Below are positions 14,268 to 19,078 of a DNA stretch of 64,000 bases, piece by piece; positions within the stretch are counted from its first letter, which is position 1; each line of letters opens with the position of its first letter. The DNA is from the human T2T-CHM13v2.0 reference genome, Homo sapiens. Location: contig CP086569.2 in the NCBI GenBank assembly GCA_009914755.4, positions 29,184,001 to 29,248,000 of the forward strand, read 5' to 3'. A program made the translations under genes and the position numbers. Under the pieces are notes generated by a model. The model made no database searches and had not been told where the DNA came from. It worked only from the letters and a program-made list of their open reading frames with translations.

Positions 14268-15763
14268 ATTGGATTACTTTCCATTCGATTACATTCCATT
14301 CATGTACATTCCATTCCAGTGAATTACAATCGAGTTCATTACATTACATTCCAGTATATTCCATTGTGTTCGATCCCATTCCTTTCAATTCCATTTCATT
14401 CGACTCCATTATATTCGATTCCATTCCACTCGAATCCATTCCATTAGAGGACATTCCATTCCAATGCATTCCATTCCATTCCAAAGCATTCCATTGCATT
14501 CGATTCCATTCCATTTGATGCCATTCCATGACATTCCATTCCATTCGAGTCCATTCCGTTCCAATTCATTCCATTCCGTTTCATGAAATTCGAGTCCTTT
14601 CCATTCCATTTCATTCCAATCCCATCCAATCCAATCTACTCCATTCAATTCCTTTCCATTCCATTTGATTATATTCCATTGATTTGATTCCATTCAGTTT
14701 GATTCCATTCCGTGAAATTTCGTTCCATTCTATTCCATTGCATTACTTTCCATTCAATTCCATTCCATTTCATTTCAGTCCATTCGCTTCCTTTCCTTTC
14801 GATTCAATTCTATTTTATTCCACTCCATTCTATGCGATTTCATTCCAATCGATTCAATTCCATTCGATGACATTCCTTTCGTTTCCATTCCCTTCGAGTC
14901 CATTCAATTTGAGCATTCGTGTCCATTCTATTCGAGTCCATTCCATTACCGTCTATTCTATTCCCTTCCATTCCTGTTGATTCAATTTCATTCCCTTCCA
15001 TTCGATTCCTTTCCATTCGATTCCATTCCTTTCCATTCCATTCCATTCGTTCCCATTCCATGTGATTTCATTCCATTCCAGTCCATTATATTCGAGTCCA
15101 CTCCACTCCATTCTATTACATTCAATTCCTTTTGAGTCCGTTCCATAACACTCCATTCATTTCGATTCCTTTTCTTGCCAGTTTTCTTCCATTTTATTCC
15201 ATTCCGTTCGATTCCATTCCACTCGATTGCATTCCATTCGAATCCTTTCTATTCCATTCCATTTCATTCGATTTGATTCCATTCTGTTCTATTCCATTCA
15301 ATTCTTTTTCATTCCATTCGAATCCTTTCTATTGCAGTCCATTCCATTCGATTCCATTCCAACCCCTTCGATTCCATTCCATTACAGTCCATTCCAATAG
15401 ATTCCATTCCTTTCCCTTTCATTCTAATCCATTCCATTTGTGTCAATTCCTTTCCAATCCATTCGACTGGATTTGATTCTCTTTCATTCTATTTGATTGC
15501 ATGGCATTCCATTCCGTTTGATTCCAGACCATTCAAGAAAGTTCCATTCCAGTCCATTGCTTTCGAGTCCATTCCATTCTACTCTAGTCTATTCCATTCC
15601 ATTCCTTTCCATTCCATTCCATACTATTCCATTCCATTCCTTTGCATTCCGTTTCCAATCTATTCGAGTCCATTGCATTCCAGTCCAATCCATTCGATTA
15701 TATTCCTTTTAATTCCCTGCTAGTCGATTGCATTGCATACTAGACCATTCCAAAGGAGTCCAT
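14268..15763 (+). repeat. DYZ1-like HSat3 HOR copy A5, truncated at junction 1 after ~1.5 kb; degenerate edge copy
   Basis: Begins at the marker at 14268. Relative to A4 it carries a 25-bp deletion near 15240, a further ~50-bp deletion near 15400-15460 and many substitutions. Ends abruptly at ...ggagtccat. Confidence 0.7.
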
Positions 15764-15765
15764 AT
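15762..15765. other. Junction 1: HSat3 (DYZ1-like) to AT-rich segment of the 2.4 kb composite satellite; breakpoint at 15763/15764 with 1 bp (t) of possible microhomology
   Basis: HSat3 homology runs through ...caaaggagtccat (expected continuation tcc). From 15763 the sequence matches the AT-rich segment of the 2.4 kb unit (tatgatat...). Confidence 0.8.
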
Positions 15766-16658
15766 GATATATTATTTAAAGTATGTAATAAAATTATATA
15801 TAACATAATATATGGTTATATGTATTGTATTATATATTTACGTATAATACTATACAGTTATATATAATTTTAAATACTTATATATAATAAAATATAAAAC
15901 ATATATAATATATATCATAAAATATATATTGTATACCATATATATTATGTATCATATATTGTATGTTATATAACATATATTGTATATCATATATCATATA
16001 TTACAAGGTATATATAACACATTCCACATATTGTATATTATAAGGAATTTATAATATATGACATACGTTTTATTACATATAATAAATTCTACGTTATATG
16101 TAACATAGAATATATTCTATGTAACATGTGTATCCTATATCAAATATGTAATATATAACATATATTATTTATAATTAATAACATAGACATATAATATATA
16201 TATAATACATGTATTATACATACAAAGTATTATATATAATATATAATACATATCATATATATGTCATAAAATATAATATATATTATATGTCATATATTAT
16301 ATATACAGTTATATATTATTATATGTTTTTTTATATTATATATAACCAGATATAATATATATTAACTATAGTGAATGTTATATATAACGTAGATATAATA
16401 TATATAATGTATATTATATACTTAATACGTACATTAACCATATAATATATTTGGTATATGATATATAATATATATTATATATGTCATAAAATATAATTAT
16501 TATATGTCATAGTGTATAAATATAATAGTTATACATTACCAGTTATTATAATACATATAATATATATAATATAAATGCAGGATGTAAAACAGTATTATAT
16601 ATATATGTTACATATATTATATATATGATTCTATATATTATTATATACATAATGTATA
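15764..16658 (+). repeat. Edge piece U0: 895 bp of the AT-rich segment only (5'-truncated unit), strongly diverged from interior units
   Basis: Aligns by eye to the distal ~900 bp of the AT-rich segment of interior units (e.g. ~18160-19078), but with many substitutions and indels. Confidence 0.7.
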
Positions 16659-19078
16659 GATATAATTGTGGGGGCCCTATTTCCCATCTCATAACTTGTT
16701 TTAAGAAGCGCAGCATAATAACGTGTGGGCTTGGGATTCAGTTCTTGAAACAAAACTCTGAGCCTTCAATGACCTTTCGGTCTATGTAAAAGCACTCCTG
16801 TCTTCTTGGCAGCAGTTGGACCTCACAATGTGGATTGTGCCCTCACCCAGCAATGTTTATGCCCTATCGCCATGGTGACGGAACTAGGGGTCTCCTGCTC
16901 TTCGTCCTAAGGACCACTGTCTGTGCTGTGTCTTTCAAAGGTCAGAAGAGATTGAACCTTTGTGGTTTTATTTTCCCTGAGTTTGCTTTTTCTCATGGGG
17001 AACCTGTGTTGCTGCTTTGAAGGTATATTCATACTGGCCTTTCAAATGCCAACTCTTCAAATTACTAGTTAAGTCTTTCAAAATATGTTATTTAAAAAAT
17101 TATCCTCTGTATTTTCCATATGCAGTTATAAGTATGTTTCATGGTTATGTTTTATTCTTCAGTTTATACATTTGATTATTGTATCAAGCAGAGTACTTTT
17201 GAAATTTTTTTTCATTTAAAAAATGTGGATCTTGGCTCAGGCCTGTAATCACAGCAAATTTGGAGGCCAAGACAAGGGGATCACAAGGTGAAGAGATCAA
17301 GACCATCCTGGCCAATACAGTGAAACGCTGTCACTACTAAAAATCCAAAAAATTAGCTAGGCATGGTGGCAGCTGCTGTAGTCCCAGTGTGGTGTAGTCC
17401 CAGCTACCTGGGAGGCTGAGGGAGGACAATCGCTTGGACCTGTGAGGCAGATGTTGCAGTGGGCAAAGATGGCGCCATTGTACTCCACCCTCTGCAACAG
17501 GACAAGACTCTGTCTAAAAAAAAATTATATATGATATATATTACGTGTTATGTGCTATGCCTTATATGTAACATATAACCTCATATATTTTATATGTCAT
17601 AGTATATAATATTTATCCTGTGTCATCTTATATATACTATATATATTACAAAACATATATAATATATGATACATATTATACATCTTATATATGAAATTAT
17701 ATAATTATAGGTAACATAATACACATTTATATGTATTATGATATATAACAAAGGTACTATATCATATATGATATATAATATATATATTTGTAGTACATAT
17801 TATAATTTTTATATATTATAATTTATATAATGATATAATTTTTTATAGAATATAAATAATTATATATGATTATATAATTCTATATATTATAAATGAAAAT
17901 ATGTAGAATTACATGTTTATCTAGTTATATGTATAATAATATAATTATATATATAGTTATATATATCACATAATAGACAACATACATATTATATAATGTA
18001 TAATATATATTATAGAATATATGATACATGATATATATGATATTTAATATAACATAATATAATCTATATTATAATATTATGTATGTTACTTATATTGGGT
18101 GATATGTAATATATATTATGTAATACGAAATAATATACTATATATTATATTATGATATTTCATGTAAATGATGTTATAAAAGTATATATAACATAATATA
18201 TAGTTATATATAATATATTATATAGTTATATATATTATATTGCATATTTACATAAAATATTATACAGTTATATATAATTTCAAATAGTTATATATAACAG
18301 AATATAAAACATATAGGATACATATCATTAAATATATATTGTATACCATATATATTAGGTATAATATATTGTATGTTATATATCATATACTGTATATCAT
18401 ATATCATATATTATATGTTATATATATCACATTCAACATATTGTATATTAGAAATTATACATAATATGTTGCATTCTTTATTTTACATGTAATAAATTAT
18501 ACATTATAGGTAACATAGTATATATTGTATGTAACCGGTATATTCTATGTAAAATATATAATATATAACACATGTGACATGTAATTAATAACATAGTCAT
18601 ATAATATATATTTAATATAGGTATTATACATACAACGTATTATGTATAATATATAATATATATTACATATGTTATAAAATATAATATATATTATATGTCG
18701 CATTTTATATATACAATTATATATTATTATTTGTTGTTTTCTACTATATATAATATAGACATAATATATATATTATGCATAATGGGTATTATATATAACA
18801 GATATATTATATATAATATGTATAATGTATAATTTATATTTAATACGTATATTAACCATATAATATATTCTATATATGATATATAACATATATTATATAT
18901 GTCATAAATTATAATATATACTATATGTCATATTGTATAAATATAAAACTTATATATTATCAATTATTATATTTTATACAATATATATAACATAAGATGC
19001 AGGATGTAAAACAATATTATGCATAGGTTATATATATTATATATATGATACTGTATATTATTATATACATAATGTATA
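16659..19078 (+). repeat. 2.4 kb composite unit U1 (2420 bp); more diverged than interior units
   Basis: Unit phased at the start of the non-AT segment (ORF ATG minus 176). The non-AT segment carries a dozen or more private substitutions (e.g. gtgggggccctatttccc, taatcacagc, ccaagacaagg). Confidence 0.75.
17234..17524 (+). mobile_element. Alu (SINE) copy embedded in unit U1; nearly full length, lacking ~12 nt of the 5' end; CpG-decayed; internal ~16-bp duplication; A9 tail
   Basis: ggctcaggcctgtaatc(a/c)cagcaaatttggaggccaag... ...ggcgccattgtactccaccctgtgcaacaggacaagactctgtctaaaaaaaaa matches the Alu left arm, A-rich linker (ctactaaaaatccaaaaaattagctagg) and right arm. Confidence 0.9.

What the first reader, a model, noticed from the sequence alone, without database searches (positions are those of the whole stretch)
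14268..19078. Junction 1 looks old: units decay progressively toward the HSat3/2.4 kb boundary
The last HSat3 HOR copy (14268..15763) carries 25-bp and ~50-bp deletions plus many substitutions relative to the preceding copy. The first AT-rich piece of the 2.4 kb array (15764..16658) is heavily diverged. Unit U1 (16659..19078) has about 1.3% private substitutions in its non-AT and Alu segments, versus a few per kb between interior units. A divergence gradient toward an array edge is the expected signature of a long-standing boundary that escapes homogenisation.
Basis: partly seen in the sequence, partly recalled or inferred. Interest (0 to 1): 0.5.

Follow-up and report, generated by a model that had tools for sequence, protein, structure and literature searches.

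The report
Decayed edge of Y-chromosome satellite arrays
The window is human Y-chromosome (Yq12) satellite DNA, and the repeat copies touching one DYZ1/DYZ2 boundary are clearly more mutated than interior copies, which is a real but already published and expected property of tandem arrays.

Summary
The window is Yq12-type satellite: DYZ1/HSat3 (3.52-3.55 kb units) at 1..15763, a 39.6 kb DYZ2/HSat1B array (one partial and 16 full 2.42 kb units) at 15764..55365, and inverted DYZ1 at 55366..64000.

At junction 1:
- The truncated last DYZ1 copy (14268..15763) has 2.5-3.1% substitutions and five pentamer-register deletions (15, 25, 15, 35, 15 bp). The other copies differ by 0.6-1.8% with 0-1 indel.
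- The partial DYZ2 piece (15764..16658) is about 12% diverged.
- U1 has 21 private substitutions in its first 900 bp (interior units 0-8) but a normal AT-rich part.

The decay is stepwise rather than smooth. Private-substitution rates are 11.3% (15764-16683), 1.6% (16684-17653) and 0.29% beyond. It is confined to about 1.5-1.9 kb on each side.

Junction 2 in the same window shows no such decay, so junction 1 is older than junction 2.

The best explanation is that terminal units are excluded from unequal exchange and gene conversion. Hallast et al. already report this pattern for Yq12 arrays, so interest is low. Absolute age, and whether the junction is multi-copy, could not be tested.

The parts
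1..15763 (+). DYZ1 (HSat3, CCATT strand up) array. Copies are D1 113-3631, D2 3632-7165, D3 7166-10719, D4 10720-14267 and truncated D5p 14268-15763.
   Evidence: k-mer offsets of 3519-3559; pentamer consensus from TRF; MAFFT alignment of 3569 columns
14268..15763 (+). Terminal truncated DYZ1 copy (D5p, columns 1-1601 of the unit). It has 38 substitutions (30 private) and five deletions of 15/25/15/35/15 bp, located after 14505, 15242, 15412, 15460 and 15490.
15268..15517 (+). Hotspot inside D5p: 14 substitutions in 250 bp and 65 bp deleted. It overlaps DYZ1 columns ~1180-1330, which are also deletion-prone in D1.
15763..15764 (.). Junction 1: DYZ1 column 1601 (...GGAGTCCAT) joined to DYZ2 consensus position 1494 (ATGATAT...). 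The join is blunt, with at most 1 nt of microhomology. The last 40 bp of DYZ1 match the consensus exactly.
15764..16683 (+). Stratum 1: partial DYZ2 unit U0 (AT-rich, phase 1494-2420) plus the first ~25 bp of U1. 11.3% private substitutions, plus a 22-bp deletion and several smaller ones.
16684..17653 (+). Stratum 2: the non-AT segment and Alu of U1. 1.6% private substitutions, and every one of its differences from the consensus is private.
17654..19078 (+). AT-rich part of U1 at background divergence (0.3% private). It shares variants with up to 6 other units (U1's nearest units overall are U10, U2, U8 and U13), so it has been homogenised.
15764..55365 (+). DYZ2 (HSat1B) array: U0 plus 16 full units of 2415-2431 bp. 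Each unit comprises a non-AT segment 1-574, a 5'-truncated Alu 575-865 (77% identical to AluY) and an AT-rich segment 866-2420.
   Evidence: 98.5-99.6% identity to 10 of 11 human DYZ2 contaminant contigs (L012 96.8%)
55365..55366 (.). Junction 2: DYZ2 phase 2420 joined to inverted DYZ1 column 521. Blunt, with at most 1 nt of microhomology. No edge decay on either side.
55366..64000 (-). Inverted DYZ1 array (AATGG strand up). Rcp 55366-55886 (partial; 0.2% from its neighbours, no private substitutions), Rb 55887-59435, Ra 59436-62984.

Best explanation
Junction 1 (15763|15764) is a long-standing blunt join between a DYZ1 array and a DYZ2 array in the human Y heterochromatin (Yq12). Both arrays are kept uniform by out-of-register exchange between sister chromatids and by gene conversion, which overwrite or duplicate interior units.

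A truncated terminal unit has non-homologous sequence on one side. It is therefore seldom or never replaced, and it keeps old variants and collects new ones. Once it has diverged far enough (about 12% for U0), homologous exchange with the rest of the array is suppressed further, and it is locked out.

The three divergence strata on the DYZ2 side (11.3%, 1.6%, 0.29% private substitutions) are read as the end-points of the last two exchange or conversion events that reached towards the edge. The multiple-of-5 deletions in the last DYZ1 copy are slippage or unequal pairing among pentamers that was never corrected.

Junction 2, which also flips DYZ1 orientation, is a younger rearrangement (probably inversion) breakpoint cut through already homogenised arrays.

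Shown: the divergence profile, the privacy of the edge variants, the interior duplications, and the asymmetry between junctions 1 and 2.
Inferred: the exchange mechanism, the lock-out, the reading of the steps as tract ends, and the inversion origin of junction 2.
For: Edge copies are outliers.
- D5p has 2.5-3.1% substitutions and 5 deletions, against 0.6-1.8% and 0-1 indel among the others.
- With the deletion-prone columns 1180-1330 removed, D5p still has 21 private substitutions against 0-9 in the other copies.
- U0 is 12.1% diverged in every 100-bp bin.
- The U1 non-AT segment is 3.06% on average from all other units (minimum 2.44%). Interior pairs average 1.24% (maximum 2.22%).

Edge variants are private. 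Only 2 of the 108 U0 variants and 1 of the 26 U1 private variants occur in 11 independent human DYZ2 copies.

A three-rate model fits better than a two-rate model (2*dlnL = 19.2), with change points at 16683 and 17653.

Interior homogenisation is visible.
- U11/U12 differ by 0.3%, U4/U6 by 0.7%, and U7/U9 and U8/U10 by 1.0-1.1%.
- These groups carry shared diagnostic indels.

Internal control at junction 2.
- The terminal DYZ1 piece Rcp is 0.2% from its neighbours and has no private substitutions.
- U16 has no private substitution in its last 158 bp.

Literature.
- The same centre-homogeneous, periphery-divergent pattern is reported for Yq12 DYZ1 and DYZ2 arrays (Hallast et al., 10.1101/2022.12.01.518658).
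- It is also reported for Drosophila Rsp, citing Smith 1976 and McAllister & Werren 1999 (PMC5411766).
- Inversions at the ends of Yq12 are reported (Fig. 4c legend), and 96.2% of units share one orientation (PMC13252187).
Against: - The profile is not monotonic on the DYZ1 side. The 40 bp next to the junction are unchanged, and the peak lies 250-500 bp away.
- That peak overlaps a segment that is deletion-prone even far from the junction (D1).
- Interior unit U5 has 22 private substitutions, as many as edge unit U16 (21). A high private count alone is therefore not specific to edges.
- Only 4.5 DYZ1 copies and 16 DYZ2 units are available, and D1 (0.57% private) is nearly as diverged as D4 (0.65%).
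- U0's 12% is too large for clock-like point mutation at the euchromatic Y rate within the age of an AluY-bearing repeat. A faster process or a distinct older variant is therefore required.
- Both divergence steps fall near compositional (AT-rich/non-AT) boundaries. This could reflect rate heterogeneity rather than tract ends, but the ordinary AT-rich part of U1 argues against that.
Confidence: 0.72

Rival explanations
1. Relic, not decay. U0 (and perhaps the non-AT part of U1) belongs to an older or different HSat1B/DYZ2 lineage that was present when the junction formed. The interior was later replaced by the modern DYZ2 variant, so most differences are changes in the array consensus rather than mutations at the edge.
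For: - U0 is uniformly ~12% diverged and drops abruptly to ~1.6% at 16683. That pattern suggests discrete layers rather than continuous decay.
- 12% is implausibly high for in-situ point mutation alone.
- The Ts:Tv ratio in U0 (54:54) matches that of ordinary segregating DYZ2 variants in the same segment (52:57).
Against: None of the 11 external DYZ2 copies carries the U0 variants (2 of 108), and a U0-specific 24-mer is absent from the metagenome collection. Both samples are far too small to exclude a rare lineage. This rival still requires the edge to have escaped homogenisation, so it refines the main explanation rather than replacing it.
Confidence: 0.3
2. Mutagenic repair. The substitutions and deletions were introduced in one step when the junction was made, by error-prone end joining or by break-induced or template-switching replication.
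For: The junction is blunt, with at most 1 nt of microhomology. Four deletions and a cluster of substitutions lie within 520 bp of it.
Against: - The 40 bp of DYZ1 adjoining the junction are unaltered.
- Divergence extends 1.9 kb into DYZ2 at 11% and then 1.6%, far beyond known repair-associated clusters.
- Junction 2 is equally blunt and has no such changes.
- The deletions keep the pentamer register, as slippage does.
Confidence: 0.05
3. Assembly or consensus artefact at a transition between two satellites.
For: Array transitions in Yq12 are hard to assemble, and no read data can be consulted here.
Against: - The differences are mostly substitutions with a normal spectrum.
- The indels are clean multiples of 5 in DYZ1, not homopolymer errors.
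- U1 has no indel at all.
- Junction 2, an equally difficult transition, is clean.
Confidence: 0.04
4. Intrinsic instability of one DYZ1 segment, unrelated to the junction, explains the DYZ1-side signal.
For: D1, about 14 kb from the junction, has an independent 25-bp deletion and a cluster of mismatches in the same columns (1183-1232) where D5p has three deletions. These columns are the most variable among the full copies (31 variable columns per 100).
Against: Outside columns 1180-1330, D5p still has 21 private substitutions against 0-9 in the other copies, plus two further deletions. This rival also says nothing about the DYZ2 side.
Confidence: 0.1

Closest known systems
Periphery-divergent DYZ1 and DYZ2 arrays of human Yq12 (Hallast et al. 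2023, 10.1101/2022.12.01.518658; Rhie et al. 2023, 10.1101/2022.12.01.518724)
   Same: The repeats are the same: 3.5 kb DYZ1/HSat3A6 and 2.4 kb DYZ2/HSat1B in alternating arrays. The pattern is the same: units in the middle of an array are more alike and divergent units sit at the periphery. The proposed cause is the same: expansion and contraction in the middle of arrays. Array inversions near the ends of Yq12 are also reported there.
   Different: The text I read describes unit-level divergence, and for DYZ2 it uses only the Alu + HSATI part. Base-level anatomy of a single junction was not found in that text. This includes the breakpoint phases, the truncated 12%-diverged AT-rich piece, the three strata, and the contrast with a clean junction 39.6 kb away. 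The supplements were not held.
[quoted passage not shown]
   Same: Terminal repeats take part in fewer exchanges. Variant and low-copy repeats therefore accumulate at array ends while the centre is homogenised. Khost et al. observed this for the Drosophila Rsp satellite.
   Different: Here the neighbour is another satellite array rather than unique sequence or transposable elements. Only one of the two ends of the DYZ2 array shows the effect.
Divergent monomeric or older HOR layers flanking active alpha-satellite arrays of human centromeres
   Same: The core is near-identical and divergence increases towards the periphery. Hallast et al. draw the same analogy for DYZ3 and Yq12.
   Different: Centromeric layers span tens to hundreds of kb with many units and a symmetric layered structure. 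Here the decayed zone is under 2 kb per side, and no centromere function is involved.

Membership tests
DYZ1 / HSat3A6 (Yq12) | Pentamer (CATTC)n-derived satellite organised in a ~3.5-3.6 kb higher-order unit | tested here: met
   TRF gives a CCATT consensus. Dominant k-mer offsets are 3519-3559. The unit alignment has 3569 columns, equal to the modal 3,569-bp HaeIII fragment reported by Hallast et al..
DYZ2 / HSat1B | ~2.4 kb unit made of an AT-rich region, a 5'-truncated diverged AluY and a more GC-rich (HSATI) part | tested here: met
   Units are 2415-2431 bp and the consensus is 2420 bp. Positions 901-2420 have 7-20% GC in 100-bp bins. This matches the published description.
DYZ2 / HSat1B | Near-identity to human DYZ2 copies from independent sources | tested here: met
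   Eleven contaminant contigs in bacterial assemblies; 10 are 98.5-99.6% identical to the window consensus and L012 is 96.8%. The window consensus differs from their consensus at 16 of 2420 sites.
Yq12 alternating DYZ1/DYZ2 architecture | DYZ1 and DYZ2 arrays directly abut and alternate | tested here: met
   The order is DYZ1, then a 39.6 kb DYZ2 array, then DYZ1, with base-exact junctions. The DYZ2 array size lies within the published range (11 kb - 2.2 Mb).
End-of-array escape from homogenisation | Terminal units more diverged than interior units | tested here: met
   Met at junction 1 on both sides. Not met at junction 2.
End-of-array escape from homogenisation | Divergence declines gradually over several units from the edge | tested here: inconclusive
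   The decline is stepwise and confined to under 2 kb per side. At whole-unit level, rho is -0.56 (p 0.026) for distance from junction 1 but -0.04 for distance to the nearest edge. The DYZ1 series D1 to D5p reads 0.57, 0.37, 0.20, 0.65, 2.0% private.
End-of-array escape from homogenisation | Interior shows recent duplication or conversion (shared variants among non-terminal units) | tested here: met
   U11/U12 differ by 0.3%, U4/U6 by 0.7%, and U7/U9 and U8/U10 by about 1%. Shared 2-bp and 5-bp deletions mark these groups.
End-of-array escape from homogenisation | Junction and its decayed flanks are old: shared by other Y haplogroups or by other junction copies | not testable with these tools
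   Junction-spanning and U0-specific patterns gave no hits in genome, metagenome or viral collections. ORFs across junction 1 and D5p are not on record. These collections hold almost no human Y sequence, so absence says nothing.

The most novel reading that the evidence does not exclude
The junction-1 module may be a fossil founder junction that predates the block amplification of Yq12. The module is DYZ1 truncated at column 1601 with its five deletions, plus the 12%-diverged AT-rich DYZ2 stub. If so, it would recur at many DYZ1-to-DYZ2 transitions and in all human Y haplogroups. Its strata would then give a dated record of successive homogenisation sweeps. The fact that both strata boundaries fall near AT-rich/non-AT transitions would point to the AT-rich segment as the preferred site of exchange in DYZ2.
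Probability: 0.25. Interest if true: 0.35.

Novelty: already known. Interest (0 to 1): 0.15.

Why it matters
This is a clean single-locus illustration of how tandem arrays evolve. The interior is rewritten, and the truncated end copies are left behind. Within one window, a decayed junction and a pristine junction of the same array give a relative ordering of two rearrangements in a region with no genes or unique markers. Such junction 'fossils' could serve as markers to trace the history of Yq12 blocks across Y haplogroups. The underlying phenomenon is textbook, and it has already been reported for these very arrays.

Tried and rejected
(1) I looked for other copies of junction 1. A 26-nt junction-spanning pattern with two N positions found nothing in genome contigs or metagenome contigs. 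A U0-specific 24-mer found nothing in metagenome contigs. A DYZ2 anchor and a DYZ1 junction-proximal 28-mer found nothing in viral contigs. These results are uninformative, because a general DYZ2 anchor recovered only 11 human contaminant contigs from 596 Gb.

(2) I tried the protein route. Exact look-ups of the ORF spanning junction 1 (44 aa) and of three D5p-specific ORFs (76, 71 and 114 aa) found no record. A homology search with the 114-aa ORF gave only partial hits, the best at 87% identity over 41% of the query.

(3) Two of the 13 loci (L009, L011) are chance bacterial matches and were discarded.

(4) I considered treating U16's 21 private substitutions as an edge effect at junction 2. 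I rejected this as unproven, because interior unit U5 has 22 and U16's are not concentrated near the junction.

(5) I considered whether faster evolution of AT-rich DNA alone could explain U0. I rejected this because the AT:non-AT variability ratio is about 2 in the interior and because U1's own AT-rich part is ordinary.

(6) I attempted an absolute age. The euchromatic Y rate (~0.8e-9 per bp per year, from my own knowledge) gives implausible ages for U0. A rough Yq12 pedigree rate comes: 26 single-SNV events in 6 transmissions over about 27 Mb, or about 1.6e-7 per bp per generation. That would put the ~2% strata at a few million years. This is too uncertain to assert.
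Full report
**What the window is.**
- Composition and tandem-repeat scans show a CCATT-type pentamer satellite at 1..15763. An AT-rich/GC-richer alternating array follows at 15764..55365. The same pentamer satellite on the opposite strand (AATGG) runs from 55366 to 64000.
- Exact k-mer offsets give periods of 3519-3559 bp in the left block and 3549 bp in the right block. The middle block has periods of 2415-2431 bp.
A poly-A and a >80% AT region follow at ~866-2420, and a non-AT segment occupies 1-574.
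- This is the published structure of DYZ2/HSat1B, and the 3.5 kb pentamer unit is DYZ1/HSat3A6. Together they form the alternating arrays of human Yq12.
- Eleven contaminant contigs in bacterial genome assemblies match the window's DYZ2 consensus; 10 are 98.5-99.6% identical and L012 is 96.8%. The sequence is therefore human DYZ2.

**Phasing.**
- DYZ1 copies are D1 113-3631, D2 3632-7165, D3 7166-10719, D4 10720-14267 and the truncated D5p 14268-15763.
- On the right, read as reverse complement, they are Ra 59436-62984, Rb 55887-59435 and the truncated Rcp 55366-55886.
- DYZ2 has a partial U0 (15764-16658, consensus phase 1494-2420) and 16 full units U1-U16 starting at 16659.

**DYZ1 side of junction 1.**
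- Over the columns it covers, D5p differs from each of the six other copies by 2.5-3.1% substitutions and five deletions (105 bp). Those six differ from one another by 0.6-1.8% with at most one indel.
- The deletions are 15, 25, 15, 35 and 15 bp. All are multiples of the pentamer.
- Thirty of its 38 substitutions are private (2.0%). The full copies have 0.20-0.65% private substitutions.
- The profile is not monotonic. The 250-bp bins read 3.2, 1.6, 1.2, 0.8, 5.6 and 2.8%, and the last 40 bp before the junction are unchanged.
- The peak at 15268-15517 overlaps DYZ1 columns ~1180-1330. D1, about 14 kb away, has an independent 25-bp deletion in those columns.
- Excluding those columns, D5p still has 21 private substitutions against 0-9 in the others.
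- D4 (0.65% private) is only slightly above D1 (0.57%). The multi-copy 'gradient' on this side therefore rests on D5p alone.

**DYZ2 side of junction 1.**
- U0 aligns collinearly with consensus 1494-2420 with 108 substitutions in 891 bases (12.1%). It runs at 7-17% in every 100-bp bin and has about 40 gap columns, including a 22-bp deletion.
- Interior units have 8-20 substitutions in that segment.
- Only 2 of the 108 variants are seen in any of the 11 external copies.
- U1 has 26 private substitutions. Twenty-two lie in consensus positions 1-993 and only four in 994-2420.
- Its non-AT segment is 3.06% from the other units on average (minimum 2.44%). That is outside the range of interior pairs (mean 1.24%, maximum 2.22%). 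Its AT-rich part is ordinary, at 2.24% against 2.19%.
- A change-point fit of private substitutions along U0-U1-U2 gives three rates: 11.3% (15764-16683), 1.6% (16684-17653) and 0.29% (17654-21498). Three rates are preferred over two by 2*dlnL = 19.2.
- Against a consensus built only from the external copies, U1 is the most diverged unit (53 substitutions; the others have 28-46).
- That external-consensus divergence falls weakly with distance from junction 1 (rho -0.56, p 0.026). It is unrelated to distance from the nearest edge (rho -0.04).

**Junction 2 as an internal control.**
- The DYZ2 array ends at phase 2420 and joins inverted DYZ1 at column 521.
- The terminal DYZ1 piece Rcp is 0.2% from Ra and Rb and has no private substitution.
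- U16 has 21 private substitutions, spread over phase 265-2262, with none in the last 158 bp. Interior unit U5 has 22.
- Junction 2 therefore shows no edge decay.
- Both junctions are blunt, with at most 1 nt of microhomology.
- DYZ1 changes strand across the array and the two breakpoints are at different DYZ1 phases. The DYZ2 block is therefore not a simple insertion.
- The simplest reading is that junction 2 is a younger rearrangement breakpoint, probably an inversion. Inversions near the ends of Yq12 are published, and 96.2% of units otherwise share one orientation.

**Interior dynamics.**
- Several pairs and triplets of units are close to each other and carry shared indels:
  - U4/U6 differ by 0.7% and share a 2-bp deletion.
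  - U7/U9 differ by 1.1% and share a 2-bp deletion.
  - U8/U10 differ by 1.0%.
  - U11/U12/U13 differ by 0.3-1.2% and share a 5-bp deletion.
- This shows recent local duplication inside the array.

**Mechanism.**
- The data fit the classical end-of-array effect. Out-of-register exchange and conversion rewrite interior units, whereas a truncated terminal unit flanked by non-homologous DNA is rarely replaced. Citations are Smith 1976 and McAllister & Werren 1999, via PMC5411766.
- Hallast et al. state this for Yq12 arrays.
- I infer that the steps mark the ends of the last exchange or conversion events that reached towards the edge. I also infer that U0, at 12% divergence, is now too different to recombine.
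- The data cannot tell whether U0's differences arose in place or are retained from an older DYZ2 lineage. Its Ts:Tv ratio (54:54) resembles ordinary DYZ2 polymorphism (52:57).
- Absolute dating is unreliable. The euchromatic Y rate gives impossible ages for U0. A rough Yq12 pedigree rate derived would place the ~2% strata at a few million years.

**Attempts to find other copies of the junction.** Pattern scans of genome, metagenome and viral collections, exact ORF look-ups and one protein homology search all found none. These collections contain almost no human Y satellite, so the negative results carry no weight.

**Verdict.** The phenomenon is already described for these arrays. The only added value is the base-level anatomy of one old junction next to one young junction.

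Noticed in passing
window 55365|55366, with 1..15763 against 55366..64000: DYZ1 flips strand across the 39.6 kb DYZ2 array. Junction 2 joins DYZ2 phase 2420 to DYZ1 column 521 and is pristine on both sides (Rcp is 0.2% from its neighbours). It is probably a young inversion breakpoint, which would place the window near an end of Yq12.
   Followed up: partly
window 23930-50526 (U4-U14): The DYZ2 array contains recent internal duplications marked by shared indels. U4/U6 share a 2-bp deletion at consensus 1288. U7/U9 share a 2-bp deletion at 1120. U8 and U10 differ by 1.0%. U11-U13 share a 5-bp deletion at 2329, and U11/U12 differ by only 0.3%.
   Followed up: partly
window 26348-28765 (U5): This interior DYZ2 unit has 22 private substitutions, all in phase 564-2212 and none in 1-563. 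It is as diverged as the edge unit U16. It may be an old singleton or an imported conversion tract.
   Followed up: no
window ~1295-1345 (D1, DYZ1 columns 1183-1232) and 15412-15490 (D5p): DYZ1 columns ~1180-1330 are a recurrent deletion hotspot. D1 carries an independent 25-bp deletion with a flanking mismatch cluster. This 100-column bin has 31 variable columns, against 0-9 in most other bins (two other indel-containing bins reach 19 and 21).
   Followed up: partly
window ~22704 (U3): There is an 18-bp insertion plus a 5-bp deletion in the AT-rich part of U3, which makes it the longest unit (2431 bp).
   Followed up: no
window 16683 and 17653: Both divergence steps next to junction 1 fall near the AT-rich/non-AT compositional boundaries of the DYZ2 unit (within ~25 bp of phase 1 and ~100-130 bp beyond the Alu poly-A). 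This may hint that exchange end-points prefer the AT-rich segment.
   Followed up: no
L001-L008, L010, L012, L013: Eleven bacterial genome assemblies contain contigs that are human DYZ2. They include Mycobacterium, Bifidobacterium, Streptomyces, Actinomadura and Azospirillum, among others. Several contigs are ~2.4 kb collapsed units. This is the contamination described by Rhie et al.
   Followed up: yes
window 14268-14700 and 10720-11200, against 55366-62984: In the first ~500 columns of the unit, D4 and D5p share four variants with the inverted right-hand copies (Ra, Rb) that D1-D3 lack. The junction-proximal left copies are therefore closer to the right array in this segment.
   Followed up: no
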